64,000 nucleotides of DNA from an uncultured Candidatus Saccharibacteria bacterium (GCA_964426555.1 CAYRQJ010000001.1:117633-181632); one strand, 5' to 3'. Positions 13,322 to 50,935 are shown, counted from the stretch's first letter. Translations and numbers: made by a program. Notes: a model not told the origin generated them from the sequence alone.

Positions 13322-13323
13322 GT

Positions 13324-14526: not shown

Positions 14527-14527
14527 T

Positions 14528-14998: not shown

Positions 14999-15016
14999 TA
15001 TCTATATAATTAAATA

Positions 15017-15499: not shown

Positions 15500-15502
15500 T
15501 AT

Positions 15503-16036: not shown

Positions 16037-16045
16037 TAACAAAAG

Positions 16046-21123: not shown

Positions 21124-21238
21124 CCCGTTAGAAGTAGGAAATCAAAGATTTCCGTCCTTTATTAACTATTAATTTAAAATTTGATTTATTCATTTCTTTA
21201 TTATATGTATTCCAATTAACAACAAAACTTCTAACGGG
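21124..21238. mobile_element. MITE-like element copy 1 (TIR CCCGTTAGAAG / CTTCTAACGGG, flanking ATCCAT direct repeats)
   Basis: 11-bp perfect terminal inverted repeats. A 6-bp direct repeat ATCCAT sits at 21118-21123 and 21239-21244. The element abuts the HIT-gene start codon. It contains the internal hairpin GGAAATC-aaa-GATTTCC. Confidence 0.55.
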
Positions 21239-25549: not shown

Positions 25550-26410
25550 ATGAAACAGCGGAAACTGGTATATTGGATAATATTTATATTAATTGTTTTA
25601 ACTCTTGTATTTTTAGCCTTGTTTTATAAGACTGAAAAACCATTAAAGCTAGTAATGCTAGACGTTGGCCAAGGTGACGCAATATATATAGAAACCCCAA
25701 ATGGCACAAACATGCTAATAGATTCCGGCCGAGACAAGACGGTACTGTATGAACTGGGTGAAGTAATGAGTTTTAACCAAAACAAGATAGACATTATTGA
25801 AGTTAGTAATCCTGATTTGGACCATATAGGCGGATTTCCTTTTGTAATGGAGAAATATAAGATAAAAAATATAATTTCTCCTGGAACAAACCATGACAGC
25901 TTGGAAGCTTTTGGTGAAATAGAGAAATTAGCACAAGAAAAACAAATTCCAGTACTGAAACCAAAGCAGGGTACTGTAATAATGCTAGACCAAAAAGAAA
26001 ATATTACTTATACAATCTTATGGCCAACGGGAAATGTAAATGGTTGGGAAGTAAACGCTGGGTCACTGGTAGGGTTAATTACATATGGAGATAAAAAGAT
26101 ACTACTAACAGGCGACGCTCCAAAAGAAGTAGAAGACCAAATAATCAATAAATACAAAGACGAATTACAAAATATTGATATTTTAAAGGTTGGGCACCAT
26201 GGGTCAAAGACTTCTACTGGTAGCGCGCTCGCCATGCTCGCGCGCCCAAAATACGCACTAATTAGCGCCGGTAAAAACAACAGGTATGGCCACCCGCACA
26301 AAATAGTGTTGGATAATTTAAATAATGTGGGTTCAAAAATTTTAGTAACCAAAGATACAGGGAGAATAACTTGCACCATATGGCTTAAAAAAGAAACCGT
26401 GTGTGACTAA
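25550..26410 (+). CDS. comEC: ComEC C-terminal metallo-beta-lactamase-fold domain protein with an N-terminal TM anchor
   Basis: LVMLDVGQGDAIYIETPNGTNMLIDSG and the HHGSKTS MBL motifs. Confidence 0.75.
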   Translation: MKQRKLVYWIIFILIVLTLVFLALFYKTEKPLKLVMLDVGQGDAIYIETPNGTNMLIDSGRDKTVLYELGEVMSFNQNKIDIIEVSNPDLDHIGGFPFVMEKYKIKNIISPGTNHDSLEAFGEIEKLAQEKQIPVLKPKQGTVIMLDQKENITYTILWPTGNVNGWEVNAGSLVGLITYGDKKILLTGDAPKEVEDQIINKYKDELQNIDILKVGHHGSKTSTGSALAMLARPKYALISAGKNNRYGHPHKIVLDNLNNVGSKILVTKDTGRITCTIWLKKETVCD

Positions 26411-26434: not shown

Positions 26435-29400
26435 GTGTTAAAATATAAACATAATATGAAGCGGAAAGCCTTTGGGGTAATAGCAACTTTTCTGGTTATG
26501 TTCCAGATGTTTTCTCCGTGGGGGATACAGATAAATAAAAACGGAGTTAGCGTTAAAGAGAATACAGTTTTAGCAGCTGAACCATTAGACCATGGAGTTA
26601 TAGCTCTATTAAAGGAGGGAACAAAAGATGGTCAAATTAACTTAACTATACTTAGTGACCCACTTTATAAATATGATGAATTTGAGGTTAAAGTCCTTTC
26701 TGGTACAACAGTACAAACTGAAATGTTTAAAGGCGCACCAACAGATAAATCTATTACTCGAAATGAAGTTGGTGTGGTTGGTTTTGATAAAGATGGCAGC
26801 CAGGCAAGATTATATTTAAGAATCGATTATGAAATAAAAAATTCTAAATTTAAAACTTCAATGCTAACTGATGTTGCTGATCCTAAAATAGCAGTCAGGG
26901 TTCCATATTATGAAGCATTAAATCCTACAAACAAAAAAGATGCCTGGAACTACATTGGTCCGACCAATACAGATATTACTGATATTGAAGAAAATGGAAC
27001 TACTTTTATATCAGCTAGCGAAGCAAGTGGTAATAATTTCAAACTAAAATGGGGGGTTCTTTCTTCTAAGAGCTCTTCTACTAACTTAATATTACCTATG
27101 CCGTCTACTCTTAATGGTGCAGATGATGACTCAATAGCTTGTACAGGTGGATTAAAAACATTAGAAACAAAAAAGAAGTTACGGTTTGCACAAAACAACA
27201 AAGACTACCCAATATATGAACATTCTTGTTCTAATTTAATAGACATCACAAAAACATTACCAAAAAAAGAAAATGGTGTTTCAAAGTATGTTGCAAATTT
27301 TGATAAAACTTCTTGGTATAAAAATATTTCTTTGAATTTTAATTTCCCATTTACTGGGAAATTACATAGTTTTTATTTATACAACAACCCAGATGATATA
27401 TCAACAGATCTTCGTGGAACTTGTGATCTTGAGTGGTGTTTTCAAGATTTTCAAATCACAAAATTAGAAGCTGTTAAAGATGAAAATGGCACACCTGCTC
27501 TTGCGGCAGATGTATCAATATTTTTAGACGACAAAGAAATTGATGATTTTAACCCTTTTGAAGATGTTGGTGATGAACCTGGAAAATTAGATTCCAAAGA
27601 CAGACCAAACAGTTGGGAAGGATGGTTACTTGAAAAAAGAGTTGATAGCAGGGATCCATCTGTTGGTGGTGGTTTATCAAATGATAAAGATACATCTCGT
27701 GGGTTTTGGCTTATTTATTCAAAAGACAAAGATACTTTGAGTGACGGTATCGGAAATAGAGAAGTTATAAATCTGGGAGATTATTTGTTTGGTGGCGACA
27801 AGGTCCCAATTTCTCCAGTTGTAGTAAAAAAACAAAATGGATTAGCTTTTAAAGTATTAATCCCAGCAGAACTTGGTAAAACATATTATGCAAAACTGTA
27901 TTCATACAGAATAGATAAGGACAATTATATAAAAAACGAAAAGGCTAACTCTACAACAAAATCATATACTATGCCGGCTACAGTAGAAGAGATTACTCAA
28001 ACTGCTAGAGATGGGGCAATAATAGAAAATGGACAAGAAAAAGAATTAGTTGCCGACCCAGCATGGCTTCCAGCATGTGGGCTTGGTTTTTGGCCTGCAG
28101 AAGATGGATCAATTACTGGTTGTGCTATTCAAATATTTTATTATTTAGTGTTTGTTCCAACTGCTTATTTATTAGCAGCAGCAGGTACTGTTCTGGATTG
28201 GATTTTAGTTTATGCAATTTCACCAGTAGCGTATAAAGCTCAGTATATTGTAGATAGTTGGAAATTTGTAAGAGATGTATGTAATTTATTCTTCATCTTT
28301 ATGATGATATATCTTGCATTCAAACTTATACTTAGTATTGGGCATCATACAAAACAATTAATTGTAAACACACTAATTATTGCAGCGGTAATTAATTTTT
28401 CTTACCCATTAACTACTGTAATTATTGATGTTTCCAACATTACAGCAAGACAATTATATTATAATTCTTTCCCTAAAGAAGATACGTTGAATGGAAAACC
28501 TTATGGGCTTTCTTCAACAGTATCAAAAGGTTACAACCCTCAACAAATAGTTATAGATGGTTTAGATAAAAATAGTAACGATTTAAAAGATACCAAAGAA
28601 AACAATAAAGGAACAATTTTTATGATTCTTTTAATGGGGGTAATATTTAATATTATTGCCATGATAATATTCTTAAAAATAGCATTATTGTTTATATACC
28701 GTATTCTTGGTCTTGTTTTTGCAATTATACTTTCACCATTTGCTGTATTTTCATTTTCTATGGATAAAGAACAGCGTAGTAAATTAAAAATGGTTGGTTT
28801 TGACACATGGTTGTCTGGATTACTACAAGATGCATTTAAGGCTCCAGTATTTTTATTCTTTATGCTTATAATGGTGCTTTTTATAAAACACAATCCATTC
28901 AAGGCAGCATTTGGGTCTGATGTTAATGGTTTAGAATGGTGGGCAAGTTTAATTATTCCTTTTATGCTACTAGTTGGATTTTTAAGTCTAATTCATTCTA
29001 TAACTAAATCAATGTCTTCATCGTTAGCTGAAATGGCTGGGGGTGTGGTAATGAAGGGAATTGGTGCAGTAGCCGGAGTAGCTGCAGGGGGGTTAGCATT
29101 AGCTGGCAGTGGATTAATTGGTAAAGGGATGACTAAACTTGCTGGATCTGGAATGGGCCAAAGAATTATGGACCGCGCTGCTACTGGTAAAGGGCTTGGT
29201 GGTTTTATTGCTCGCCAACAAGCCAAAGCTATTCGTGGAATGCAAGCAGGTAGTTTTGATTTAAGACAAAATGGTGTAGCTAACGCAGTAAGTAAAGCAA
29301 CAGGGATGAACTTTAATCTTGGGGCATCTATGATTGGACTTGGTACAGCAAAAACTGCTGGTGGTTTCGTAGAAAGTGTTGAAAGAAAAAATAAAAAGAG

Positions 29401-30430
29401 AGAAGAATTTGTTAAAATGTTAGAGTGGAATAAAAATTTAGCAGAAAAACTAAAAGAACGCAAGGCGGATAAGGATACAGAGAAGGAAGGTTTAGAAACT
29501 GAAGCTAAGGATAAAAAAGCATTTATAGAAGAAAGAGATGCAGCTTTAAAAAATAGTGAGAAAAGTAAAAAAGATGCAGACGAAAGAGTAGGTGATTTTG
29601 AAAAATTACAAGATCTTTTAGCTAGAAGAACCGACTTTGTTTCAACAGGTAAACCAGTAACAGAAATTGATGTTCAAATTGGTAGAATAGAGGCAAAGTT
29701 AAGTGGTGGTCGTGGAAGTTTAAGTACTATTGACCCAACAACTAATACAAGGACAGTAAACGCTGTATTTGGAGCATTAAAAACAAATGCTGACGCTGAA
29801 AAAGTTAGAGCAAAGAGAGCAAAAGATGTTAATCAAGGCAGACTAGATATTGCTAAACAATCATTAAAAGAGAATAATGATGCAATAAGAAGTTTGGATA
29901 AAGAAATATCCGCACTTACTAAAGCAATTGAAAATGTAAAAAATAACCGTAAAAATGGTTATGCTCATATGATACGAAACAAATCTGGTCATATATTCCA
30001 TAAAGATACTTACACAGAAAAATATAACCACGGACACAAAACACCATTAAACGCTGCTGAAATGGCAAAATTTACTTCAACTTTTGGAACTCTTAGTGGG
30101 GATATGGCAAACATTATAACAAGAGTTGACGAGCATTCACATGAAGCAAATAATAAATTTAAAGCAAAAGTATTATCAGTAAATACAGCACTGGGGTTAT
30201 TAGCAGGAGCATTTACTGGTGGGGCAGGTGCTATTGCAGCCGGAATAGCTGCTGGGGGGCTAGTTGGAATATCTCGTACATACCAACCAGGTAACGAACA
30301 TTATGGCGTCGCACATGATCCAGCTGCTTGGCACCCACACCCTCATGATAATTATCACCCACCTACCGGTGGAGGAGGTGGCGGCGGAGGTGGCGGAGGT
30401 GGCGGAGGCCACGATAGTCACGGACACTAA
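26435..30430 (+). CDS. VirB6/TrbL-like polytopic giant protein of the T4SS-like locus
   Basis: Signal peptide, ~550-aa extracytoplasmic domain, central block of ~7 TM helices, coiled-coil Lys/Glu-rich region, Gly/Ala-rich segment, and the tail PPTGGGGGGGGGGGGGGHDSHGH. Confidence 0.55.
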   Translation: MLKYKHNMKRKAFGVIATFLVMFQMFSPWGIQINKNGVSVKENTVLAAEPLDHGVIALLKEGTKDGQINLTILSDPLYKYDEFEVKVLSGTTVQTEMFKGAPTDKSITRNEVGVVGFDKDGSQARLYLRIDYEIKNSKFKTSMLTDVADPKIAVRVPYYEALNPTNKKDAWNYIGPTNTDITDIEENGTTFISASEASGNNFKLKWGVLSSKSSSTNLILPMPSTLNGADDDSIACTGGLKTLETKKKLRFAQNNKDYPIYEHSCSNLIDITKTLPKKENGVSKYVANFDKTSWYKNISLNFNFPFTGKLHSFYLYNNPDDISTDLRGTCDLEWCFQDFQITKLEAVKDENGTPALAADVSIFLDDKEIDDFNPFEDVGDEPGKLDSKDRPNSWEGWLLEKRVDSRDPSVGGGLSNDKDTSRGFWLIYSKDKDTLSDGIGNREVINLGDYLFGGDKVPISPVVVKKQNGLAFKVLIPAELGKTYYAKLYSYRIDKDNYIKNEKANSTTKSYTMPATVEEITQTARDGAIIENGQEKELVADPAWLPACGLGFWPAEDGSITGCAIQIFYYLVFVPTAYLLAAAGTVLDWILVYAISPVAYKAQYIVDSWKFVRDVCNLFFIFMMIYLAFKLILSIGHHTKQLIVNTLIIAAVINFSYPLTTVIIDVSNITARQLYYNSFPKEDTLNGKPYGLSSTVSKGYNPQQIVIDGLDKNSNDLKDTKENNKGTIFMILLMGVIFNIIAMIIFLKIALLFIYRILGLVFAIILSPFAVFSFSMDKEQRSKLKMVGFDTWLSGLLQDAFKAPVFLFFMLIMVLFIKHNPFKAAFGSDVNGLEWWASLIIPFMLLVGFLSLIHSITKSMSSSLAEMAGGVVMKGIGAVAGVAAGGLALAGSGLIGKGMTKLAGSGMGQRIMDRAATGKGLGGFIARQQAKAIRGMQAGSFDLRQNGVANAVSKATGMNFNLGASMIGLGTAKTAGGFVESVERKNKKREEFVKMLEWNKNLAEKLKERKADKDTEKEGLETEAKDKKAFIEERDAALKNSEKSKKDADERVGDFEKLQDLLARRTDFVSTGKPVTEIDVQIGRIEAKLSGGRGSLSTIDPTTNTRTVNAVFGALKTNADAEKVRAKRAKDVNQGRLDIAKQSLKENNDAIRSLDKEISALTKAIENVKNNRKNGYAHMIRNKSGHIFHKDTYTEKYNHGHKTPLNAAEMAKFTSTFGTLSGDMANIITRVDEHSHEANNKFKAKVLSVNTALGLLAGAFTGGAGAIAAGIAAGGLVGISRTYQPGNEHYGVAHDPAAWHPHPHDNYHPPTGGGGGGGGGGGGGGHDSHGH

Positions 30431-30443
30431 TAAATAAATTTAT

Positions 30444-31190
30444 ATGGATGAAGAAGAAAACATACAATTAGACGAACAAGCTCAAGCAGAATCAATGAGA
30501 GATGCTATTCATGAAAGAATTGCTTCTCTTGATGCACCAGTTCGTAATTTACTGCTTAGTGATGATTATGTATTAAAGCTAAGAGACATGGTGACTAAAT
30601 ATAGCTTAGACGCAACAAACACTCAAAATCTTGAAGAGATTACTACAAATTATTTACTTGGGGTGATTCGTCCAGAAGAATTAGAACAAACATATAGAGA
30701 AGGTTTATCTAGTTTAACGAAAGATAATATAAATTCTATCTATACAGAAATAAAAAACAATATTTTAAATTCTGTATGGCAAACAATAATAGATGCTTGG
30801 GCTGAAGATGACGAAAACGAACAAATTTATAATGAACTTCTAGAAATGGACGAGATTCCACTACCACCTAATCAACAAAAAGATGGGTCAAAGACATTGG
30901 GGGACAAAGTAAACAAAGAAATAATTAGAAATACAGAATTAGAATTACAGAAAAAACAAGAACAAGTTGAAATAACCCCAGAAATTAAACCTTCAGGGAT
31001 TATAACCAACGAAGAATTAGTAAAAAAGATTAGCGAAGAAAAAAGTGTAGAAAAATCAGCTTGGGATAAAAAAGCTGACGACGTAGATGCAAATAACAAT
31101 GCAACAGTAACTAGTAGAAACAATGTGGACACCAGCTTACCAAAAATATCTCTAAAAAGTTCGGATCCATACAAAGAAACCATAGAATAA
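30444..31190 (+). CDS. Acidic hypothetical protein
   Basis: 248 aa, Glu/Asp-rich, no TM. Confidence 0.45.
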   Translation: MDEEENIQLDEQAQAESMRDAIHERIASLDAPVRNLLLSDDYVLKLRDMVTKYSLDATNTQNLEEITTNYLLGVIRPEELEQTYREGLSSLTKDNINSIYTEIKNNILNSVWQTIIDAWAEDDENEQIYNELLEMDEIPLPPNQQKDGSKTLGDKVNKEIIRNTELELQKKQEQVEITPEIKPSGIITNEELVKKISEEKSVEKSAWDKKADDVDANNNATVTSRNNVDTSLPKISLKSSDPYKETIE

Positions 31191-31214
31191 TCCCGCAATG
31201 CGGGGTTATTTTTA
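31190..31214. terminator. Rho-independent terminator
   Basis: cccgcaatgcgggg plus T-run. Confidence 0.55.
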
Positions 31215-31281
31215 TACAACATTTTATATAATACTAGTTAAAATGTTATTAATAAAATTTTATATGCTATAATTATTTTAT

Positions 31282-31710
31282 ATGCAATTCCAAATGCCAA
31301 GATTTTTGGACATTGAAGACAAAGTCATTGGGCCTTTGACTTTTAAACAATTCATATTTTTGGGTGGAGGTTTTGGTTTGGCATATGTGTCATACAAATA
31401 CTTGGGTTGGACATGGGGTTTTCCTTTGATTGGACTATTTTTATTCCTGGGAATAAGTTTGTCTTTTTGGAAACCAAACAGTCGTCCAGCAATTGTAATG
31501 TTTCAAGCTTTTTTAAAGCATTACACAAAAAACCATATGTATGTTTGGAAACGCCCTACAAAAGCTGAAAGAATTAAAAAAGAAGAAAAGAAAGACGAGG
31601 GTACAAATATACAAAACAAAGACATAAATAAAAATAAAATTGAAGCATTAGCATGGAGTCTAGATGTAATGGATAGAGTTGGATCGGGAATTAAAAAGGA
31701 AGAAAATTAA
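31282..31710 (+). CDS. Small two-TM protein, VirB3/PrgI-like (by position and topology)
   Basis: Two adjacent TM helices, and the gene sits directly upstream of VirB4. Confidence 0.4.
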   Translation: MQFQMPRFLDIEDKVIGPLTFKQFIFLGGGFGLAYVSYKYLGWTWGFPLIGLFLFLGISLSFWKPNSRPAIVMFQAFLKHYTKNHMYVWKRPTKAERIKKEEKKDEGTNIQNKDINKNKIEALAWSLDVMDRVGSGIKKEEN

Positions 31711-31711
31711 C

Positions 31712-32368
31712 ATGGCAATTAACGCACCTAAAAGTCAAGAATTTATACCTATAGAAAAAATCCGCGATGGTGTGGTTATACTTAAAGATGGGTCATACCG
31801 CAGTGTACTGTTGTGTACTGCTATTAATTTTACATTGCGGTCTGAAGACGAACAAAAAGCTATTCTTTCTCAATTTCAGTCATTTTTAAACTCACTGGAT
31901 TTCTCTGTACAAGTAGTAATTCAGTCTCGTAAATTTGATATAAGACCTTATTTAATAACACTGGAAGACAGATTAGATAAAATAGAAGAACCATTACTAA
32001 AATTCCAAACAAAAGAATACATAGAATTTATTCGCGAACTTACTAGCTCGGTAAATATAATGTCAAAACATTTTTATGTTGTTGTGCCATATTCCGAAGC
32101 AGTACTGGAAACTGCCGGGGCTTTTCAAAAATTATTTGGTGGAGTAGGTGGTTTAAAGAAAAAAGAAACATTTGAAGAAGCCGACTGGAACGAAAAAAGA
32201 AACCAGCTTGAACAAAGACTGGGAATTGTGGTATCTGGTTTGGGAAGATGTGGTGTTCGTAGTGAAGCATTAGATACCCAAGGTTTGATCGAATTGTATT
32301 ACAAGACTTTTAACCCTGGCGACGCAGCACAACATGTGCCAAAGCAAGCGATTGATGAATCCCGTTAG
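31712..32368 (+). CDS. virB4: VirB4-like ATPase, N-terminal segment (the gene is split by an inserted element)
   Basis: IPIEKIRDGVVILKDGSYRSVL... matches the VirB4/TrbE N-terminal pattern. It ends at a TAG inside the element's inverted repeat. The start was set at the ATG immediately after the upstream stop. Confidence 0.55.
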   Translation: MAINAPKSQEFIPIEKIRDGVVILKDGSYRSVLLCTAINFTLRSEDEQKAILSQFQSFLNSLDFSVQVVIQSRKFDIRPYLITLEDRLDKIEEPLLKFQTKEYIEFIRELTSSVNIMSKHFYVVVPYSEAVLETAGAFQKLFGGVGGLKKKETFEEADWNEKRNQLEQRLGIVVSGLGRCGVRSEALDTQGLIELYYKTFNPGDAAQHVPKQAIDESR

Positions 32369-32480
32369 AAGCCACGATCACAATTATGGTATTATTATAA
32401 TGATATGAGATATATGAAAGAGTTTAGTAAGTTTAATTTTATGCAAAATTGCGATTGTATCGTGATCTGCTTCTAACGGG
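32361..32480. mobile_element. MITE-like element copy 2, inserted inside virB4
   Basis: TIR CCCGTTAGAAGC (32361-32372) and GCTTCTAACGGG (32469-32480). Flanks are atgaat / atgggt. The upstream ORF stops in the TAG of the left TIR, and the downstream ORF starts at the ATG immediately after the right TIR. Confidence 0.55.
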
Positions 32481-34298
32481 ATGGGTATATTTTCAGGATT
32501 ATTTGGTGGTAATAAAAGGGAAGATTTAAACGATCTTGGATCTCTTTCTGTTCGCCCGGAAGATATTTACACTTCTGCTCAACTTGAACTACAAGACATT
32601 ATTGCTCCATCTGCATTACAAATAATGCCAACAGCGCTGAATTTGGGGGATATGATAGTGCGTTCATTTTATGTTGTGGGTTACCCCAGTATTCTTACAG
32701 ACAATTGGTTAACTCCTATTATTAATCTGGACCGAGTTTTTGATATTGCTATAAACATAAACCCAATTGATACTGGTAAAATTTTAATCCAATTCCAAAG
32801 AAAAGTTGCCGAAGTCCAAAGCCAAATCTCTGAGCGAGAAAGTAAAGGAATGGTTCGTGACCCAATGCTAGAAGCAGCGTATAGAGATTTAGAACAATTA
32901 CGTGATGGGCTACAACAAGCCCAAGAGCGAATGTTTGAAGTTGGGTTATACATTAGTATATATGCGCAAAACGAAACCGAATTATTCAAAGCTGAAAATG
33001 AAATAAAGGGTCAATTAGATTCTCAAATGGTTTTTCTAAAACCGGCAACATTCCAGCAAGACACAGCATTCCTGTCTAGTGTGCCAACTGGCGTAGACGA
33101 TTTAAAGGTTGTTCAAAAAATGAATACTGAACCATTAAGTAGTACTTTTCCTTTTGTATCTTTTGATTTAACAGGCAACAAAGGAATATTGTATGGTATT
33201 AACCAACATAATAATTCATTAATTATTTTTGACCGTTTTTCTTTAGAAAACTATAACTCGGTAACTTTTGCAAAATCTGGGTCTGGTAAATCTTTTGCTA
33301 CAAAGTTGGAAATTTTAAGATCTTTAATGTTTGATACCGAAGTAATCGTAATTGACCCAGAAAAAGAATACGAATATTTGTCTGATGCAGTAGGCGGAAG
33401 ATATTTTGATATTTCTCTTTCTTCTGACCACCATATTAATCCTTTTGATTTACCGGTACCAACAAAAGACGAAACAGCAGGGGACGTATTGCGTCAAAAC
33501 ACAATTAATCTTGTGGGGCTATTTCGTGTAATGCTGGGCGGGCTAACTCCTGAAGAAGATGCAATAATCGACCGCGCAATTACTGAAACTTATGCATTAA
33601 AAGACATTACCGTAGATTCAGATTTTACAAATTTAGAACCACCACTATTGTCTGACTTTGCTGTAGTACTGGCTGGTATGGACGGGACACAGTCTATCCA
33701 AACAAAGTTGGAAAAATATACAACCGGATCTTGGTCTGGGTTTTTAAACAAACCAAGTAATGTAGACATCAACCGTAAATTCGTAGTTTTTTCTATTCGA
33801 GATATGGAAGACGAACTAAAGCCAGTGGCAATGTATATTGTTACTCACTTTATTTGGAACGAAGTAAGAAAGAATTTAAGAAAGCGTTTAATGGTGGTAG
33901 ACGAAGCGTGGTGGATGATGAAAAATGAAGACACTGCTAGCTTCTTATATAGTATTGCAAAGCGTGGGCGTAAATATTATCTTGGTTTAGCTACAATTAC
34001 TCAAGACGTAGAAGATTTCTTAAAATCTCCTTATGGTAGACCAATATTGTCTAACTCTTCAATGCAACTATTGTTAAAACAATCGCCAACATCTATAGAT
34101 ATGTTAAAAGAGTCTTTTAATTTAACAGACTCTGAAAAATACACACTACTTGAAGCAAATGTAGGGGAAGGTATTTTCTTTGCTGGATTAAAACATGTAG
34201 CAATTAAAATTATTGCTTCTTATACTGAAGAACAAATTATCACATCTGACCCAGCCCAAGTATTGGCTATCCAAGCAGCAAAAGCTCAAGGTAAATAA
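32481..34298 (+). CDS. virB4: VirB4-like ATPase, C-terminal segment (Walker A/B)
   Basis: Walker A FAKSGSGKSFAT and Walker B MVVDEAWWMM (DEAW), typical of VirB4/TraC. Confidence 0.8.
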   Translation: MGIFSGLFGGNKREDLNDLGSLSVRPEDIYTSAQLELQDIIAPSALQIMPTALNLGDMIVRSFYVVGYPSILTDNWLTPIINLDRVFDIAININPIDTGKILIQFQRKVAEVQSQISERESKGMVRDPMLEAAYRDLEQLRDGLQQAQERMFEVGLYISIYAQNETELFKAENEIKGQLDSQMVFLKPATFQQDTAFLSSVPTGVDDLKVVQKMNTEPLSSTFPFVSFDLTGNKGILYGINQHNNSLIIFDRFSLENYNSVTFAKSGSGKSFATKLEILRSLMFDTEVIVIDPEKEYEYLSDAVGGRYFDISLSSDHHINPFDLPVPTKDETAGDVLRQNTINLVGLFRVMLGGLTPEEDAIIDRAITETYALKDITVDSDFTNLEPPLLSDFAVVLAGMDGTQSIQTKLEKYTTGSWSGFLNKPSNVDINRKFVVFSIRDMEDELKPVAMYIVTHFIWNEVRKNLRKRLMVVDEAWWMMKNEDTASFLYSIAKRGRKYYLGLATITQDVEDFLKSPYGRPILSNSSMQLLLKQSPTSIDMLKESFNLTDSEKYTLLEANVGEGIFFAGLKHVAIKIIASYTEEQIITSDPAQVLAIQAAKAQGK

Positions 34299-34322
34299 AT
34301 AAAGCTGTGATATAATAATTAG

Positions 34323-35267
34323 ATGAAAAGGCTTTTTGTAATGCTTTTTATGTTATCTAGTTTTTTAATTACTAACTCAAATGTATTTGGGCAAACTTCT
34401 AGCGCCGAACCAAATATAGACATTATAGCCAGCCCTAATGACCCAGAACCGGGGGAAGAAATCACAATTAGTCTTAGTAGTTACGAAATAGATTTGGGAT
34501 TAGCTTATATAAAATGGGCTGGAGAAAACAACACAAAAGAAGGTTATGGGGAAACAGAATTTACAGTAAACGCACCTAACAACGACAATGATTCATATAC
34601 TGCCCGAGCTTTTATAAAAACCAGTGATGGACAAAATATAGAAAAATCTATTACTGTATATACAAATACATATGATTTAATTTGGGAAGCCGTTGATACA
34701 AAATATCCTCCATTTTATGCTGGTAAAAAGTTACCAATTAAAGAAAATACGCTAAGAGTATCACTACTACGACCAACAACAAGTAAACAATATTCTTTTA
34801 AGTGGCAAAGAAATGGTAAAAGCATTACTGGTAAAGGTGGGATGCTTAACCCATGTGTAGAATTTGATAATACGGAAATTCAAAACAAAGAAAATGTTTC
34901 TGTAAAAATATCTAATGGTACAAACCAAGCTGAAAGAAATATTGATATACCATTAAACAAACAAAGAGTTTTGTTTTACGAATACATTCCACAATTTGGA
35001 TTAAACACAAATAATGCTTTGAATAAAAATTCAATTGGGTACGACGGCACAGTATCAGTACTGGGGTTGCCTTTAGGGTTAAGCAATAATGCAAAGACTG
35101 AATTTAGTTGGAATTTATCTGGAGATGATGTAAATAGTCAAGAAAATCCTTTTTTACTTTCTTTTGGTAAACCTGAAGGCAAGGGAGTTGTTAAAATAAC
35201 TGTAAGAATAGAAAATTTAAAATCTCTTTATCAAGAATTTAAAGGTGTTTTAAATTTAGAATTTTAA
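34323..35267 (+). CDS. Secreted hypothetical protein of the T4SS-like locus
   Basis: Signal peptide MKRLFVMLFMLSSFLITNSNVFG. Confidence 0.5.
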   Translation: MKRLFVMLFMLSSFLITNSNVFGQTSSAEPNIDIIASPNDPEPGEEITISLSSYEIDLGLAYIKWAGENNTKEGYGETEFTVNAPNNDNDSYTARAFIKTSDGQNIEKSITVYTNTYDLIWEAVDTKYPPFYAGKKLPIKENTLRVSLLRPTTSKQYSFKWQRNGKSITGKGGMLNPCVEFDNTEIQNKENVSVKISNGTNQAERNIDIPLNKQRVLFYEYIPQFGLNTNNALNKNSIGYDGTVSVLGLPLGLSNNAKTEFSWNLSGDDVNSQENPFLLSFGKPEGKGVVKITVRIENLKSLYQEFKGVLNLEF

Positions 35268-35367
35268 TATGAATCCGCCAAAACTTTTCATTTTAAATAA
35301 ACAAAAGTTTAGGAGGATGAATCCGCCAAAAATTTTTATTTGGTATTAATAATAAATTAAACTTTTC

Positions 35368-36450
35368 ATGAAAAAACTAAGAAAAATTAGGCGGATGAAT
35401 TTAAAAAAATTATTTACAATCATTTTTATACTAACTAGTATTGTTTTTTTGGGGAACATTACACATGCTGAAGAATTACCAACCGCCAAAACATACACCG
35501 AGCAAACCGGAATAGACGCATCTGCTGGTAGCTATGAACTAATCAGCCCAATAGGGAACTTAAGTAAAATACCAGATGTTAGTGATAATGGATTCTCTGA
35601 CTTTGTTAATCTACTTATTCGTATAGCTATAGCATTAGCAGGGGCTATAGCTGTAGTAATGCTAATAATAGGCGGTATACAGTATATGGGTACCGATAGT
35701 GTATGGGAGAAGGGGGAAAGTAGAAGTAGAATGACCAGTGCTATTATTGGTTTAGTGTTGTTATTAACATCTTATTTTATATTGTTTAATATTAATCCAG
35801 ATTTGGTAAATATTCGTATAGGGGGTCTGCGGGTTAGTGAAGAAGAGTGGGAAAAAGTAGAATTTGATAAAGGAGTAAGACCCTGGATAGGTTCTACTCC
35901 GGTAGATATAAGCAAAGCTTCAGAAAAAAATATTATTCAAAGCAATATTACTACTTATGATGTATCTTTAAAAAAAGCAGCAGTAGCAACAGGGTTATCT
36001 TGTACAGATTTAAAGGCTTTTGCTTTTGTGGAAACAGGTTTCGACAAAGATGTTGTTAATGGAACAAAAACTAGTAGTAGTGGAGCTGCTGGTCTTATGG
36101 CTTTAATGCCAGCTACGGGGAAAAATTATGGATGTAATACTGCTGCTGAACTAAGTGACCCTGAAAAAAGTGCTCTTTGCGGCGCAAAGTTTTTAAAAGA
36201 ATTAAAAACAAAAGCATGTAATGGTGCTGAAAAAAACGATGTTTGTAATACCACAGACACAAAATATATAAGTGCGGCTTATAACGGTGGCCCTGGGGTT
36301 AATGCTCAATCTAAAGACTGTCCAAATGAAAAAGTTACTCGCTGGCAGTGTCACACAAACCAGGGTGGATTAAAAGAAACAGAGTACTATACTGTTAAAA
36401 TAGCTGCAAATCAAGAACAACTAAAGAAAAAAGGGTGGGGTTGTGACTAA
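35368..36450 (+). CDS. VirB2/TrbC-like two-TM pilin module fused to an SLT-domain lytic transglycosylase (VirB1-like)
   Basis: Signal peptide, then FVNLLIRIAIALAGAIAVVMLIIGGIQYMG...RMTSAIIGLVLLLTSYFIL (two helices, VirB2-like pattern). C-terminal SLT motifs ETGF, AAGLMALMPATG and AYNGG. Confidence 0.7.
   Translation: MKKLRKIRRMNLKKLFTIIFILTSIVFLGNITHAEELPTAKTYTEQTGIDASAGSYELISPIGNLSKIPDVSDNGFSDFVNLLIRIAIALAGAIAVVMLIIGGIQYMGTDSVWEKGESRSRMTSAIIGLVLLLTSYFILFNINPDLVNIRIGGLRVSEEEWEKVEFDKGVRPWIGSTPVDISKASEKNIIQSNITTYDVSLKKAAVATGLSCTDLKAFAFVETGFDKDVVNGTKTSSSGAAGLMALMPATGKNYGCNTAAELSDPEKSALCGAKFLKELKTKACNGAEKNDVCNTTDTKYISAAYNGGPGVNAQSKDCPNEKVTRWQCHTNQGGLKETEYYTVKIAANQEQLKKKGWGCD
35500..35827. repeat. 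327-bp repeat, identical by eye (copy A), encoding the pilin-like module
   Basis: Same sequence as 38571-38898, as far as I can check by eye. Confidence 0.85.
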
Positions 36451-36520
36451 TATTTCTTTGTTTGATTAGTTTTATAAAAAATAAATAGTTTTTATAAAAG
36501 ATAAATGTTAAAATGTTTAT

Positions 36521-37771
36521 ATGCACAAGGGGCAAATGCTTCGAATATCTTTGTTTATCCTTATCTTAGGGATGGGAGCTTTTTTGATAATTAGAAACAT
36601 TACGCTAAAAAAACAACTAAAAAATGGAGAAATTGCGGAAATAAAACCCCGGGATTTTTTGCCGTTTGGAGACAAAGCAAAAGATTTTTTTAATAATGCA
36701 ATAGACAAAGTAACCGGTAACGAAGAAAACGACAATCAGCAAAATCAAGAAAATAAGCTTAGATTAAACAAGGTTTCTGCCGATGTTGCTGGTAGCGCAG
36801 TAGTAATAATAGACGACGAAATTGCAGGGCCAGTTGGAACAGATAAAAATGGTAATAACATATACGACAAAATTACTGCTGTGCAATATGTATTAAAGGA
36901 AAACGGATTTGTTTATAGCTATATCCCAAAATACAAAAAAAGTTATTTAATTTCAGAAACAAAAATTCCACACATTCAAAATGCTAAAATTTCAGATGAT
37001 GGAAATATTGTTTTATTTCAATATTTAGATTCAGATTTAAGTACTGAAAAATCTGTATTGGGTAAACTGGGGGACAGTGCTGTAAAAATTCTTCCGGACA
37101 ATATAATATCTTACGATATGAATCAAAGTGGTGATTTTGTTTATGTAAAAAAATCAAAAACAGGGTCAATTATTTCTTTAATTAATAATTTTGGGAATGA
37201 AGTAAATTTATATGTATCAACAGTCACAGAATGGAATGTAAAATTTATTAATAATAATGAATTATTACTAACTACAAAAGCATCAGAATATTTTAATGGG
37301 GTTTCTTATGTTTATAATATAAGATCAAAATCAATGACTCGTTTATGGGGAGGATTTTCTGGACTAACTACAAATATTTCCAGTGGTGGTAATTATATAT
37401 TACGAGCAGTTACAGAGCAGTCTGGACCAAAGCTTGCACTGTATGACAATAAAACTAAATCAGTTTTTGATTTAAACAAGCTGGGCATGGTTGAAAAGTG
37501 TGCTTTTAGTAAAGACGAAACAATTTTAGTATGTGCACTACCAAAAGAATTTCAGAATATGGCATATCCAGATAGTTGGTATTTAGGAGAAATCTCAACT
37601 AAAGATAATTTTATAAAATATACTACATTAAACAAAAACGAAACTATTCTTCCTGGTTTTAATGATATTACAGAAGATTTTGATGTAATAAATCTAAACA
37701 TTAGTAACACTGGAGACATTATGTCTTTTATCAACAAAAAAGATTCGTCTCTTTGGGTATATGAAGAATAA
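36521..37771 (+). CDS. Membrane-anchored hypothetical protein (N-terminal TM, large extracytoplasmic domain)
   Basis: N-terminal TM LRISLFILILGMGAFLII, no motif found. Confidence 0.45.
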   Translation: MHKGQMLRISLFILILGMGAFLIIRNITLKKQLKNGEIAEIKPRDFLPFGDKAKDFFNNAIDKVTGNEENDNQQNQENKLRLNKVSADVAGSAVVIIDDEIAGPVGTDKNGNNIYDKITAVQYVLKENGFVYSYIPKYKKSYLISETKIPHIQNAKISDDGNIVLFQYLDSDLSTEKSVLGKLGDSAVKILPDNIISYDMNQSGDFVYVKKSKTGSIISLINNFGNEVNLYVSTVTEWNVKFINNNELLLTTKASEYFNGVSYVYNIRSKSMTRLWGGFSGLTTNISSGGNYILRAVTEQSGPKLALYDNKTKSVFDLNKLGMVEKCAFSKDETILVCALPKEFQNMAYPDSWYLGEISTKDNFIKYTTLNKNETILPGFNDITEDFDVINLNISNTGDIMSFINKKDSSLWVYEE

Positions 37772-39377
37772 ATTTTTAAAAATTTTATTTGTTTTTGGAA
37801 TTTTATTTTATAGTATTAATTCTTTTGCTGCATGGAGTAATATTGGTAATAGTGTTTCCTTTATGGAAACCAGTAGTAATGGAAATGATACTGCTATTGT
37901 TTATTCTGGGTGTGGAGTTAGTGATGGTGGTGCACAAAACTGGGCAAATGCATTATATGAATCAAAATTAAAAACAAAAGGCATAAAATATCTCTATGCT
38001 GTGGCCTTACCTAGTGGAGCAAATAATTGTGCTGTATCTGTTGCAAATATCTCTAATTCAAAAATAGTTACTGATTTAGAATCAAAAAATACATCTGGGC
38101 AAATTAAAAATATTATAGTAATAATGCATTCATCTGGAGCATTCACAGCACAAGATTTTTTAAGACAAATCAATAATAAGTCAGCATTTAATAAAATAGT
38201 TACTGCTTTTAATATAGATGGGGCAAATATTAGTGGGGTAGCCTTAAAGAAAACATATTTAGTAATTGGTAAATCTGGAACAATCAAATCTTTAAATCAT
38301 GATATCGGTATTATAAACGACGAAACTATTGATTTAATTTTACCAACTGGATGTAGTACAGCTTTTTGTACACACATGAGACTGGTAAATAGTACTGGGG
38401 GGAATAGCACAGTAGATGCAGATTATAAAAATACGACAGCTAGTAATGTAACTAGTTCATATTTAGATAAACTACCTAATGTATCAGTTAGCTCTAGTGG
38501 CGGTACAACCCTTGTGGTTGGTGGTGGAGTAGCAAATACATCAACAACTCTAACGGCTAAAACTTTTAATGAGCAAACCGGAATAGACGCATCTGCTGGT
38601 AGCTATGAACTAATCAGCCCAATAGGGAACTTAAGTAAAATACCAGATGTTAGTGATAATGGATTCTCTGACTTTGTTAATCTACTTATTCGTATAGCTA
38701 TAGCATTAGCAGGGGCTATAGCTGTAGTAATGCTAATAATAGGCGGTATACAGTATATGGGTACCGATAGTGTATGGGAGAAGGGGGAAAGTAGAAGTAG
38801 AATGACCAGTGCTATTATTGGTTTAGTGTTGTTATTAACATCTTATTTTATATTGTTTAATATTAATCCAGATTTGGTAAATATTCGTATAGGGGGCTTA
38901 ACTGTAAATGAAGAAGCTTGGGATATCGAATTTGGTGATGGAGGATCACAGTATTTAACTAATGGCAGCTTAACTCCTGGATCTACAACAAAAAATTGTC
39001 CAGAAGGTTTTGTGAATACTGGTGTTTTTGTGGCTTGTAAAAGTATTGCTAAAAATATTGAAAACATGGTCGCAGCTGCAAAAAAAGATGGCATAATTTT
39101 AGGTGGGGGAGGATTTAGAACAAAAGAACAACAAATTGAATTAAGAAAGAAAAATTGCGGAGGCGATGTCGATACAAAAAAATCTACACAATGTAATCCA
39201 CCAACTGCTAAACCCGGAACTTCAAGACACGAAAGCGGAAAAGCTTTTGATATCACATGCGATGGTAAAAGTATGGCAGGTAGTAAATGTTTTACCTGGT
39301 TACAAAACAATGCAGCAAAGTATGGATTAAAAAACTACAAAGCCGAACCATGGCACTGGTCAACAGATGGACATTAA
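37761..39377 (+). CDS. Secreted multi-domain protein: N-terminal domain, VirB2-like two-TM module, C-terminal M15 (VanY/L-Ala-D-Glu peptidase-like) zinc peptidase
   Basis: Signal peptide. The internal 108 aa are identical to the 35368 gene. The C-terminus has SRHESGKAFD (SxHxxGxAxD) and EPWHW (ExxH) zinc ligands of peptidase M15. Confidence 0.65.
   Translation: MKNKFLKILFVFGILFYSINSFAAWSNIGNSVSFMETSSNGNDTAIVYSGCGVSDGGAQNWANALYESKLKTKGIKYLYAVALPSGANNCAVSVANISNSKIVTDLESKNTSGQIKNIIVIMHSSGAFTAQDFLRQINNKSAFNKIVTAFNIDGANISGVALKKTYLVIGKSGTIKSLNHDIGIINDETIDLILPTGCSTAFCTHMRLVNSTGGNSTVDADYKNTTASNVTSSYLDKLPNVSVSSSGGTTLVVGGGVANTSTTLTAKTFNEQTGIDASAGSYELISPIGNLSKIPDVSDNGFSDFVNLLIRIAIALAGAIAVVMLIIGGIQYMGTDSVWEKGESRSRMTSAIIGLVLLLTSYFILFNINPDLVNIRIGGLTVNEEAWDIEFGDGGSQYLTNGSLTPGSTTKNCPEGFVNTGVFVACKSIAKNIENMVAAAKKDGIILGGGGFRTKEQQIELRKKNCGGDVDTKKSTQCNPPTAKPGTSRHESGKAFDITCDGKSMAGSKCFTWLQNNAAKYGLKNYKAEPWHWSTDGH
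38571..38898. repeat. 327-bp repeat, identical by eye (copy B)
   Basis: Same sequence as 35500-35827. Confidence 0.85.
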
Positions 39378-39383
39378 TAAATA

Positions 39384-39408
39384 AAACCCGCAATTGCGGG
39401 TTTTATTC
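39384..39408. terminator. Bidirectional rho-independent terminator
   Basis: aaaacccgcaattgcgggtttt. Confidence 0.6.
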
Positions 39409-50883: not shown

Positions 50884-50935
50884 TACTTATTTTAACGCAC
50901 CCCACCCTGACCCTCCCCGTGACCAGGGAGGGAAG
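50884..50935. repeat. GC-rich hairpin repeat (family member) overlapping the 3' end of the DUF559 gene
   Basis: gcaccccaccctgaccctcccc-gtgaccag-ggaggg. Confidence 0.6.

What the first reader, a model, noticed from the sequence alone, without database searches (positions are those of the whole stretch)
26435..39377. T4SS-like locus without relaxase or coupling protein, in a chromosomal housekeeping context next to the origin
The locus has a VirB6-like giant polytopic protein, an acidic protein, a VirB3-like two-TM protein, VirB4, a secreted protein, the two hydrolase fusions and a membrane-anchored protein. It lacks a recognisable VirD4, relaxase, VirB11 or an integrase on either side. It is flanked by comEC and by jag-yidC at oriC. 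This fits the non-conjugative T4SS-like systems proposed for CPR-type bacteria (DNA uptake or host attachment) rather than an ICE. The presence of comEC and a type IV pilus operon in the same window supports a DNA-uptake role.
Basis: inference. Interest (0 to 1): 0.55.

Follow-up and report, generated by a model that had tools for sequence, protein, structure and literature searches.

The report
Chromosomal type IV secretion system, CPR bacterium
This is the chromosomal, non-conjugative type IV secretion system already described for ultra-small CPR (Patescibacteria) bacteria, in its Paceibacteria form; the one feature I did not find described is that its pilin-like module is fused to interchangeable cell-wall-cutting enzymes.

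Summary
Window 26435-39377 is a one-strand, nine-ORF cluster ending at a strong terminator. It encodes a 1331-aa polytopic protein, an acidic protein, PrgI/VirB3, a VirB4 ATPase, a secreted protein, two pilin-hydrolase fusions and an N-anchored protein. VirB4 is in two ORFs, a TrsD-like N-domain plus the ATPase.

No ORF of 100 aa or more in the 64-kb window matches a coupling protein, relaxase or VirB11. The only recombinase-like ORF lies 23 kb away. The gene order, abutting jag-yidC-rnpA | dnaA-dnaN, recurs in about 80 Paceibacteria species. It is therefore a vertically inherited core locus, not an ICE.

This was published in 2023-2025 (Wang 2023; Quinonero-Coronel 2025), so the main claim is a rediscovery.

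The proposed DNA-uptake link to comEC and type IV pili is not supported. comEC lies nearby in only 3 of 82 loci. In the one genetically tested relative the T4SS is essential and comEC is dispensable.

New detail:
- The VirB2-like module is fused to swappable peptidoglycan enzymes (VanY, SLT, NlpC/P60, YkuD, amidases) in about half of relatives.
- Paralogues within a genome share the pilin half and differ in the enzyme.

A widespread palindromic element that abuts start codons sits between the two VirB4 ORFs.

The parts
26435..30430 (+). 1331-aa 'extended VirB6-like' polytopic membrane protein. It has a signal/anchor, a roughly 500-aa outside domain, about 7 TM helices (aa 563-889), a charged coiled-coil-like region, one more hydrophobic segment and a Gly14/His-rich tail.
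   Evidence: Hydropathy. No significant family hit for this sequence (MMCAP2_0566 E 0.044). Of 34 orthologous TM cores, 11 match the Mycoplasma-ICE polytopic protein MMCAP2_0566 (best 1.1e-7), 9 match Mbov_0396 (1.3e-6), 2 match CD3337/EF1877 and 1 matches TrbL/VirB6 (0.009). The TM core is conserved in 67 of 82 loci.
30444..31190 (+). 248-aa acidic (pI 4.4) soluble protein of unknown role. The position is conserved; the sequence is not.
   Evidence: BLAST-detectable in only 5 of 82 loci, but a gene of similar size sits at this position in L002.
31282..31710 (+). PrgI/VirB3-like small membrane protein.
   Evidence: Pfam PrgI E 7.8e-6. Orthologues in 78 of 82 loci. PF12666 is recorded for the relatives.
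31712..32368 (+). TrsD-like protein, the detached N-terminal domain of VirB4. The ORF opens at TTG 31679; the likely start is ATG 31712.
   Evidence: NCBIfam: VirB4_plasma E 1.2e-12 (model 103-235), conju_CD1110 E 4.3e-8 (model 2-129), TrsD E 1.3e-4. A separate gene in all close relatives, 81 of 82 loci.
32360..32481 (.). Palindromic insertion element between the two VirB4 ORFs. The TrsD-like ORF's stop (TAG) lies in the left arm, and the VirB4 ATG begins right after the right arm.
   Evidence: Perfect 13-14-bp arms, -40 kcal/mol, z = -3. Family found elsewhere. The same 112-nt gap occurs in two independent assemblies. Absent at this junction in L003.
32481..34298 (+). VirB4 ATPase (C-terminal two thirds of a canonical VirB4).
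   Evidence: P-loop_TraG 7.6e-27. conju_CD1110 2.9e-115, 386 bits, above the cut-off, model 178-732 of 752. tblastn with pCF10 PrgJ 1e-38. Thousands of homologues of about 605-612 aa in Paceibacteria.
34323..35267 (+). 314-aa secreted protein of unknown fold (weak Ig-like signals only).
   Evidence: Signal peptide. Conserved in 75 of 82 loci directly after VirB4. No Pfam, NCBIfam or PDB match.
35368..36450 (+). Fusion protein: signal peptide, VirB2-like two-helix pilin module (aa about 40-150) and a C-terminal SLT lytic transglycosylase.
   Evidence: By topology both ends of the hairpin and the SLT domain are outside the membrane (inference).
36521..37771 (+). 416-aa protein with one N-terminal TM helix and a beta-rich outside domain, possibly a TolB-like propeller.
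   Evidence: The profile of 30 orthologues hits TolB at E 0.0036. Conserved in 69 of 82 loci as the last gene before jag. The AF2 model was unusable.
37761..39377 (+). Fusion protein: signal peptide, unknown 250-aa domain, Ser/Thr/Gly linker, VirB2-like pilin module (aa about 280-375) and a C-terminal VanY/M15 peptidase.
   Evidence: (VanY structures 5e-8). The N-terminal domain has no counterpart in the 82 loci.
35500..35825 (+). 326-nt stretch encoding the pilin module, 100% identical to 38571-38896.
   Evidence: blastn, the repeat finder. Independent short-read contigs end inside this repeat.
38571..38896 (+). Second copy of the 326-nt pilin-module repeat.
39380..39407 (.). Bidirectional intrinsic-terminator-like hairpin (12 bp) closing the operon, between the last T4SS gene and the convergent jag.

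Best explanation
The locus is the Paceibacteria version of the Patescibacteria-clade type IV secretion system. It is a monoderm-type machine descended from Gram-positive/Mollicute conjugation systems (MPF_FATA). It has become a fixed chromosomal operon next to the replication-initiation genes and no longer has a relaxase or coupling protein encoded beside it.

Shown:
- A VirB4 ATPase, here made of a TrsD-like N-domain protein plus the ATPase proper.
- A PrgI/VirB3 partner.
- A large polytopic protein at the VirB6 position.
- Two proteins in which a VirB2-like helical hairpin is fused to a peptidoglycan enzyme.
- Two conserved extracytoplasmic proteins.

Inferred mechanism:
1. VirB3, VirB4 and the VirB6-like protein form the membrane translocon.
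2. VirB4 extracts the VirB2-like hairpins from the membrane to build a short tube or pilus.
3. The enzyme domains carried on those hairpins sit outside the membrane and cut peptidoglycan so that the structure can cross a cell wall. This is certainly the bacterium's own wall (the VirB1/PrgK role) and possibly the host's.
4. The machine serves contact-dependent exchange with a host cell that this reduced-genome bacterium needs for growth. I think uptake of host material is somewhat more likely than effector export.

It is not a conjugation apparatus, and its function does not depend on ComEC.
For: Component identities:
-. VirB4 scores 386 bits against conju_CD1110. The TrsD-like ORF and the ATPase ORF cover model positions 2-129 and 178-732 of that family.
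- PrgI, two T4SS_pilin hits above Pfam's cut-off, SLT and VanY are all detected.
- Orthologues of the polytopic protein match the Mycoplasma-ICE TM proteins encoded next to a pilin-like gene and VirB4.

Core-genome status:
- The order polytopic-PrgI-TrsD-VirB4-secreted-pilin fusion-anchored protein | jag-yidC | dnaA-dnaN holds across about 80 species.
- A complete 808-kb genome (CP064958.1) has the same arrangement.
- G+C is unremarkable.
- The genes are tightly spaced on one strand with a terminator at the end.

No conjugation genes.

Pilin-enzyme fusion as a design principle:
- Among 70 syntenic orthologues, 55 match T4SS_pilin, with NlpC/P60 in 11, VanY in 9, SLT-type in 7, YkuD in 3 and amidases in 4.
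- Among 112 representatives of separate 50%-identity clusters: VanY 23, SLT 17 plus SLT_2 2, NlpC/P60 10, YkuD 7, M15_4 5.
- 68 of the 70 have at least 100 aa after the module.
- Paralogues within one genome share the pilin half (56-99% protein identity, 100% over 326 nt here) but carry different enzymes.

Literature:
- The T4SS is present in 2,417 of 3,035 Patescibacteria genomes, forms its own VirB4 clade inside MPF_FATA, has TrsD and VirB2-like genes near virB4, rarely has a relaxase, and lies close to dnaA in Paceibacteria (PMC12102498).
- The T4SS and its pilins are essential for epibiotic growth, while comEC is dispensable (PMC10633639, PMC12857230).
- Tubular structures that reach into the host, together with host RNA uptake, are reported in a cultivated Microgenomatia strain (bioRxiv 10.64898/2026.06.21.733656).
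Against: - Nothing here shows expression, assembly or a substrate. The direction of transport is a guess.
- The VirB6 assignment is weak for this protein itself (E 0.04-0.06; hhalign against PrgH E 0.095).
- No VirB8-like protein was identified.
- Pilin modules carrying 170-250-aa domains at one or both ends may be unable to pack into a VirB2-type filament. They may be nothing more than membrane anchors.
- A T4CP or relaxase could be encoded outside the 64 kb. The 2025 survey finds VirD4-like proteins elsewhere in most genomes.
- The essentiality data come from another class, Saccharimonadia.
Confidence: 0.72

Rival explanations
1. DNA-uptake T4SS. The machine imports DNA from the environment or the host, in the manner of Helicobacter ComB or the archaeal Ced system, and hands it to ComEC.
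For: - No relaxase or T4CP is present.
- ComB and Ced are precedents for importing T4SS-like machines (PMC11665869).
- VirB4 gives a weak, partial hit to CedB (E 4.3e-9 over about 70 residues).
- comEC, recJ and a type IV pilus operon are in the window.
- These bacteria cannot make nucleotides.
Against: - comEC is near the T4SS in only 3 of 82 loci.
- T4P plus ComEC already account for transformation in the tested relative, where comEC is dispensable and the T4SS is essential.
- The CedB hit covers only the shared P-loop region. The same protein scores 386 bits against a conjugative VirB4 family.
- Nucleic-acid import that does not pass through ComEC is not excluded. It is folded into the best explanation as one possible cargo.
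Confidence: 0.12
2. Degenerate or cryptic conjugative element (ICE remnant) that still transfers DNA with a relaxase and coupling protein encoded elsewhere.
For: - The parts are homologous to conjugation genes of pCF10, CD1110-type ICEs and Mycoplasma ICEs.
- VirD4-like genes exist away from virB4 in most Patescibacteria.
- A recombinase-domain ORF next to tRNA-Lys lies at 62701-63875.
Against: - The chromosomal position and gene order are the same in about 80 species.
- There is no integrase, att-like repeat or composition shift at the borders.
- Relaxases were found in only 103 of 3,035 genomes in the survey.
- The recombinase ORF is 23 kb away, across dnaA, dnaN, pbp, ruvAB and other housekeeping genes.
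Confidence: 0.03
3. No pilus and no host targeting. The VirB2-like hairpins are only membrane anchors that hold VirB1-type hydrolases beside an envelope-spanning channel, as the N-terminal TM segment does for PrgK in pCF10. The enzymes act only on the bacterium's own wall.
For: - Monoderm T4SSs normally use multidomain, membrane-anchored hydrolases with varied catalytic domains (PrgK, 871 aa, is annotated in pCF10; PMC12102498).
- Large domains on both ends of the module in 37761-39377 argue against filament packing.
- The window encodes a class A PBP, so the cell has its own wall to cross.
Against: - The module is a bona fide VirB2/TrbC relative, not a generic TM pair.
- Some relatives have short, stand-alone versions of 131-210 aa.
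- Pilin genes are essential in S. epibionticum, and tubes are seen in strain OT8.
- Rapid swapping of enzyme type among close relatives is more than a housekeeping hole-puncher needs.
Confidence: 0.3

Closest known systems
Patescibacteria-clade T4SS as surveyed by Quinonero-Coronel et al. 2025 (PMC12102498); experimentally, the Southlakia epibionticum locus SEML1_0006-0019 (Wang et al. 2023, PMC10633639)
   Same: - MPF_FATA-type VirB4, with TrsD and PrgI/VirB3 homologues beside it.
- A VirB6-like polytopic protein and VirB2-like pilin genes (PF18895), with wall hydrolases downstream.
- No relaxase or T4CP in the cluster.
- Chromosomal and, in Paceibacteria, next to dnaA, dnaN, rnpA and rpmH.
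   Different: - Saccharimonadia carry an array of about 6 small, divergent pilins. Here and in most Paceibacteria relatives there are one or two pilin modules, each fused to a peptidoglycan enzyme.
- I found no mention of such fusions in the papers I could search.
pCF10 Prg/Pcf conjugation system of Enterococcus faecalis (MPF_FATA prototype)
   Same: - The core order is polytopic protein, then PrgI, then VirB4, then a wall hydrolase.
- PrgJ aligns with the ATPase ORF (25% identity, 1e-38).
- It is a monoderm architecture without VirB7, VirB9, VirB10 or VirB11.
   Different: - pCF10 has the PcfC coupling protein, the PcfG relaxase and surface adhesins, and no pilin.
- Its VirB4 is one polypeptide.
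- Its hydrolase PrgK is anchored by an ordinary TM segment.
- PrgH and PrgL gave no significant profile match to the window proteins.
Mycoplasma ICE transfer module (Mbov_0395 pilin-like / Mbov_0396 or MMCAP2_0566 TM protein / Mbov_0397 VirB4)
   Same: - This is the only named system whose polytopic protein family is hit by the orthologues of the 1331-aa protein (11 and 9 of 34).
- Its VirB4 family matches both VirB4 ORFs.
- It also has a pilin-like small protein, which gives a faint hit to the pilin module (E 0.022).
   Different: It is a mobile element with its own transposase, coupling protein and variable location. Its pilin-like protein is about 80 aa and unfused.
Helicobacter pylori ComB and archaeal Ced DNA-import systems
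   Same: Both are T4SS-derived, lack a relaxase and T4CP, and are chromosomal.
   Different: - ComB has the diderm core (VirB7/9/10), which is absent here.
- Ced has its own CedA proteins; only a partial P-loop match to CedB was seen.
- No conserved linkage to comEC was found.

Membership tests
Patescibacteria-clade T4SS (MPF_FATA-derived) | VirB4 ATPase of the MPF_FATA type | tested here: met
   NCBIfam conju_CD1110 at 386 bits, above the 325 cut-off. P-loop_TraG 7.6e-27. PrgJ tblastn 1e-38. All nearest homologues are Paceibacteria/Nomurabacteria proteins. No tree was built.
Patescibacteria-clade T4SS (MPF_FATA-derived) | TrsD-like protein (VirB4 N-domain homologue) encoded beside virB4 | tested here: met
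   ORF 31712-32368: VirB4_plasma 1.2e-12, conju_CD1110 4.3e-8, TrsD 1.3e-4. Present in 81 of 82 loci.
Patescibacteria-clade T4SS (MPF_FATA-derived) | VirB3/PrgI homologue | tested here: met
   PF12666 E 7.8e-6, 26.8 bits, which is 0.2 below Pfam's cut-off. Orthologues in relatives carry the precomputed PrgI hit.
Patescibacteria-clade T4SS (MPF_FATA-derived) | VirB6-type polytopic channel protein | tested here: inconclusive
   The topology and gene position fit. This protein itself scores only E 0.044-0.064. Of 34 orthologues, 11 match MMCAP2_0566 (best 1.1e-7), 9 match Mbov_0396 and 1 matches TrbL (0.009). hhalign against PrgH gives E 0.095. The AF2 model was unusable.
Patescibacteria-clade T4SS (MPF_FATA-derived) | VirB2-like pilin (PF18895/PF04956) near virB4 | tested here: met
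   Two modules at 29.2 and 29.8 bits against a cut-off of 26.6. 55 of 70 orthologues match T4SS_pilin and 4 match TrbC.
Patescibacteria-clade T4SS (MPF_FATA-derived) | No relaxase or T4CP in the cluster; chromosomal position near dnaA | tested here: met
   for the window. for the position. The rest of the genome was not available.
Patescibacteria-clade T4SS (MPF_FATA-derived) | VirB8-like bitopic protein | tested here: not met
   Neither the 314-aa nor the 416-aa protein profile matches PrgL or any VirB8/TcpC structure. The survey also finds VirB8 rarely, so this feature is not strictly defining.
Conjugative element (ICE or plasmid T4SS) | Relaxase and oriT | tested here: not met
   No relaxase family appears in any window ORF. 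PcfG tblastn finds nothing in the window or the 82 loci.
Conjugative element (ICE or plasmid T4SS) | Type IV coupling protein (VirD4/TcpA) | tested here: not met
   The same scans apply. PcfC tblastn gives a best E of 0.81. The unknown ORFs have no Walker A motif. The genome outside the window was not tested.
Conjugative element (ICE or plasmid T4SS) | Integrase, att sites and variable insertion site | tested here: not met
   There is no integrase at either border. The neighbours are identical in about 80 species. No long flanking direct repeats were found.
DNA-import T4SS (ComB / Ced) | Conserved genetic linkage with competence genes, or the family's own marker proteins (ComB7/9/10, CedA) | tested here: not met
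   comEC is nearby in 3 of 82 loci. Only a partial CedB P-loop hit was found. No VirB9/10-type proteins were detected.
DNA-import T4SS (ComB / Ced) | DNA uptake depends on the machine | not testable with these tools
   This needs genetics in a cultivated Paceibacteria strain.

The most novel reading that the evidence does not exclude
The VirB2-like modules do polymerise, or cap a tube, so that the T4SS builds a pilus studded or tipped with peptidoglycan enzymes. The organism uses this as a wall-piercing organelle to open the host's sacculus.

The constant pilin half and swappable enzyme half would then behave like a polymorphic effector system. The enzyme type (glycosidase, D,L-endopeptidase, carboxypeptidase, amidase, L,D-transpeptidase fold) would track the host's wall chemistry and so help set host range.
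Probability: 0.2. Interest if true: 0.75.

Novelty: new member of a known kind. Interest (0 to 1): 0.4.

Why it matters
- The function of the Patescibacteria T4SS is an open question. It is essential in the only species tested, and reviews call its role completely unknown.
- This locus adds nothing to the basic description: relaxase-less, chromosomal, near dnaA.
- The comparison it prompted does show that, in the largest CPR class, the pilin-like module is a carrier for interchangeable cell-wall enzymes. That gives concrete experiments: which wall do the enzymes cut, and where do they sit?
- It also argues against reading nearby comEC as functional linkage.

Tried and rejected
1. **Frameshift or pseudogene reading of the split VirB4.** Rejected. 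Every close relative has a separate N-domain gene of about 215 aa and an ATPase gene of about 605-612 aa, usually 1-4 nt apart. Only one fused 846-aa homologue was seen.
2. **Intron, bypass or ribozyme reading of the 112-nt gap.** No Rfam family matches. It is a copy of a dispersed palindromic element.
3. **Structure route to VirB6 and VirB8.** AlphaFold2 on the 416-aa protein (single sequence) and on the TM core of the 1331-aa protein (3 sequences) gave pLDDT 39 and 42, so no fold search was run. Deeper alignments could not be made. The word-indexed homologue search returned only 2 hits for each of the TM core and the pilin module, and sequences from fetched loci are not accepted by the predictor.
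4. **Profile comparisons.** hhalign of orthologue profiles against single pCF10 PrgH and PrgL sequences was not significant.
5. **PDB sequence and profile searches.** These gave only VanY for the last gene, a weak TolB hit for the 416-aa family and noise for the rest.
6. **Extending the window along its contig to look for a T4CP.** The flanking proteins are not on record, or only on short contigs.
7. **DnaA boxes.** The total number of boxes in the window is not above chance. Only the local cluster upstream of dnaA is suggestive.

Full report
**What is there**

Window 26435-39377 carries nine ORFs on the + strand. They are tightly spaced and are closed by a 12-bp terminator-like hairpin at 39380-39407. 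In order:

1. A 1331-aa protein with an N-terminal signal/anchor, about seven hydrophobic helices between residues 563 and 889, a charged region, one more hydrophobic segment and a Gly14/His tail.
2. A 248-aa acidic protein, pI 4.4.
3. A PrgI/VirB3-like protein (Pfam E 7.8e-6).
4. A 218-229-aa ORF that matches only the N-terminal part of VirB4 families and TrsD.
5. A 605-aa VirB4 ATPase: P-loop_TraG 7.6e-27; NCBIfam conju_CD1110 at 386 bits, above its cut-off.
6. A 314-aa secreted protein.
7. A 360-aa protein with a signal peptide, a T4SS_pilin module and an SLT lytic transglycosylase.
8. A 416-aa protein with one N-terminal TM helix.
9. A 538-aa protein with a signal peptide, an unknown domain, the same T4SS_pilin module and a VanY/M15 peptidase.

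VirB4 is two ORFs. The anchored protein sits between the two fusions. 'VirB6-like' is not supported by a significant hit for this protein itself.

**Surroundings**

- Upstream lie recJ, rnhA, a Competence-domain ORF, sodA on the other strand, and a separate metallo-beta-lactamase ORF. ComEC is therefore split.
- Downstream lie jag, yidC and rnpA on the - strand, then dnaA and dnaN.
- Three DnaA-box-like 9-mers cluster 55-85 nt upstream of dnaA.
- A type IV pilus operon (PilB, PilC, three prepilins) is at 11564-17794, and a second PilB at 51356-53059.
- Every substantial ORF in the 64 kb was scanned against Pfam. None matches a coupling protein, relaxase, VirB11-type ATPase or tyrosine/serine integrase next to the locus.
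- tblastn with pCF10 PcfC, PcfG and the Tn916 integrase found nothing.
- The only recombinase-domain ORF (62712-63875, beside tRNA-Lys) is 23 kb away, beyond the replication genes.

**Related sequences**

- The ATPase ORF is 100% identical to proteins in NCBI and Logan assemblies. It has thousands of homologues of about 605-612 aa labelled Nomurabacteria, Paceibacterota or Parcubacteria.
- A complete 808-kb genome (CP064958.1) has the same cluster in the same place, with the N-domain gene and the ATPase gene 3 nt apart.
- A scan of one genome per species returned 80 loci with VirB4 68-92% identical.
- tblastn with the window's proteins shows the order polytopic protein - PrgI - TrsD-like - VirB4 - secreted protein - pilin fusion - anchored protein, followed by jag(-) yidC(-) and dnaA dnaN, in nearly all of them.
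- Counts out of 82 loci: TrsD-like 81, PrgI 78, secreted protein 75, pilin 70, anchored protein 69, polytopic core 67. yidC is present in 63 and dnaA in 57; many contigs end early.
- comEC is present in only three.
- The locus is therefore ancient and vertically inherited in this class, and the split VirB4 is its normal state.

**Is the big protein VirB6?**

- The protein itself has no significant match.
- Of 34 orthologous TM cores scanned one by one, 11 match the MMCAP2_0566 family (best 1.1e-7) and 9 match the Mbov_0396 family (1.3e-6). These are the polytopic proteins encoded between a pilin-like gene and VirB4 in Mycoplasma ICEs.
- Two more match CD3337/EF1877 and one matches TrbL/VirB6 at 0.009.
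- I read this as homology to the polytopic component of Mollicute/Firmicute transfer systems. Equivalence to VirB6 is inferred from position and topology.
- No VirB8-like protein was found. The 416-aa family gives only a weak TolB-propeller signal (E 0.0036), and the 314-aa family gives nothing. Both AlphaFold2 attempts failed for lack of alignment depth.

**The pilin-enzyme fusions**

- The two fusion genes share 326 nt that are 100% identical (35500-35825 and 38571-38896). Two independent short-read assemblies of the same organism break exactly there. This argues that the repeat is real.
- In the 70 orthologous pilin-bearing ORFs from the related loci, 55 match T4SS_pilin, and 68 have at least 100 residues after the module.
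- The recognisable C-terminal domains are almost all peptidoglycan enzymes: NlpC/P60 11, VanY 9, SLT-type 7, YkuD 3, Amidase_5 3, Amidase_2 1, M15_4 1, 3D 1.
- An exhaustive HMMER search with the 116-aa module found 13,407 cluster representatives (1,715 at E <= 1e-10). The best 150 have a median length of 444 aa.
- Of 112 of these scanned: VanY 23, SLT 17 plus SLT_2 2, NlpC/P60 10, YkuD 7, M15_4 5.
- In the seven genomes that have two such genes, the paralogues share the N-terminal/pilin half (56-99% identity). That is far more than between genomes (20-45%). Their C-terminal enzymes differ.
- By topology (a cleaved signal peptide followed by two TM helices), both ends of the hairpin, and so the enzyme, lie outside the membrane. 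This step is inferred.
- I did not find these fusions mentioned in the papers I could search.

**What is already known**

- Wang et al. 2023 described the relaxase-less, pilin-bearing T4SS of Southlakia epibionticum. Tn-seq showed it to be essential for epibiotic growth. comEC was needed for transformation but not for growth.
- Quinonero-Coronel et al. 2025 surveyed 3,035 Patescibacteria genomes. They reported:
  - VirB4 in 2,417 genomes, forming its own clade inside MPF_FATA.
  - TrsD, VirB3, VirB6 and VirB2-like genes near virB4.
  - Relaxases in only 103 genomes.
  - VirD4-like genes mostly far from virB4.
  - Proximity to dnaA, dnaN, rnpA and rpmH in Paceibacteria.
- A 2025 review and a 2024 perspective call the function unknown. 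They mention both effector export and uptake of host molecules.
- A 2026 preprint on a cultivated Microgenomatia strain reports tubes reaching into the host, together with uptake of host RNA.

**Mechanism**

- Shown: the parts list, their conservation, their position, and the absence of conjugation genes nearby.
- Inferred: VirB3, the two-piece VirB4 and the polytopic protein form the membrane translocon. VirB4 mobilises the VirB2-like hairpins. The attached enzymes open peptidoglycan.
- At minimum the fusions play the VirB1/PrgK role on the cell's own wall. The window encodes a class A PBP, so there is a wall to cross.
- Their rapid domain swapping and the constant/variable architecture make action on the host wall a live possibility, which I put at about 0.2.
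- The cargo and its direction are unknown. I lean toward uptake of host material, because of the organism's dependence on a host and the OT8 observations, but export of effectors is not excluded.
- The comEC/T4P argument for DNA uptake fails, both on synteny (3 of 82 loci) and on the published genetics.

**The element inside the locus**

The 112 nt between the two VirB4 ORFs form a hairpin with perfect 13-14-bp arms (CCCGTTAGAAGC...GCTTCTAACGGG). The upstream stop codon lies in the left arm, and the VirB4 ATG begins immediately after the right arm.

Other copies:
- One abuts the ATG of the HIT gene (21124-21238).
- A shorter GC-rich relative (54944-55014) lies just upstream of a TTGACA-17-TATAAT promoter.
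- The same element sits at the same junction in a species with 72%-identical VirB4 (L023), and at the PrgI/TrsD junction in another (L032). It is absent in the closest relatives.

Wider distribution:
- Of 102 copies with adequate flanks, 57 directly abut the ATG or GTG of an ORF of at least 90 codons.
- 44 of those have a second start-codon copy on the other side, and 39 have an identical 4-nt flank on both sides.
- The right-hand start is GTG exactly when the element's terminal base is G.
- A second inner helix shows compensatory variants: CGCGGTC, CGCGATC, CTCGGTC, CGCGGAC.
- No Rfam family or paper matches it.

For the T4SS, the practical point is that the insertion regenerates the VirB4 start. 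The hairpin probably keeps VirB4 translation coupled to that of the N-domain gene. That last step is an inference.

**Verdict**

The finding is real and correctly read as a non-conjugative CPR T4SS. It is a new member of a known, recently described kind. Its suggested DNA-uptake link is unsupported. The pilin-enzyme fusion pattern and the start-codon-abutting palindromic element are the parts that go beyond what I found in the literature.

Noticed in passing
window 32360-32481, 21124-21238, 54944-55014; L023 9880-9999; L032 9243-9358; loci L084-L203: A widespread family of 99-130-nt palindromic elements with the ends CCCGTTAGA(A/G)G...C(T/C)TCTAACGGG. Of 102 copies, 57 sit exactly against the start codon of a long ORF, usually with a duplicated 4-nt flank (such as TGAA) and a second start-codon copy on the other side. 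Others sit in TTGAC (-35-like) sites. An inner helix shows compensatory changes, and the median folding z-score is -5.3. No Rfam family and no paper match it.
   Followed up: partly
window 23547-24863, 24830-25429 (-), 25550-26410: ComEC is split. A DUF4131 + Competence-domain ORF and a separate membrane-anchored metallo-beta-lactamase ORF are separated by sodA on the opposite strand. The closest relatives L003, L004 and L205 have the same arrangement.
   Followed up: partly
proteins P0134, P0139, P0142, P0146, P0229: Some relatives of the pilin module are giant proteins (966-1775 aa) with 10-15 tandem pilin modules in one chain. They look like pilin arrays fused into polyproteins.
   Followed up: no
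window 26435-39377 relative to dnaA 41538; the same in about 80 loci: The whole T4SS operon is transcribed toward dnaA and converges on jag-yidC. If oriC is at dnaA, the operon would be head-on to the replication fork. This orientation is conserved across the class. The published gene-dosage idea does not address it.
   Followed up: no
window 62701-62774 (+) and 62712-63875 (-): tRNA-Lys(UUU) overlaps the 3' end of an ORF with only a 'Recombinase' domain (E 5.7e-8). This may be the edge of an integrated element at the end of the window. It is unrelated to the T4SS.
   Followed up: no
window 50892-51278 (-) and 53171-53530 (-): Two DUF559 (Vsr-like endonuclease fold) ORFs flank the second PilB gene.
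   Followed up: no
window 30360-30410: The 1331-aa protein ends in a run of 14 glycines followed by a His-rich tail (HPHPHDNYHPP...GGGGGGGGGGGGGGHDSHGH), encoded by a GGN repeat. Its role is unknown.
   Followed up: no
P0032 (846 aa): One homologue (61% identity) is a single-chain VirB4 in which the N-domain and the ATPase are joined by a short linker (…MNWFDKLIINN-MGIFDK…). It is either a rare fused form or a read-through gene call.
   Followed up: no
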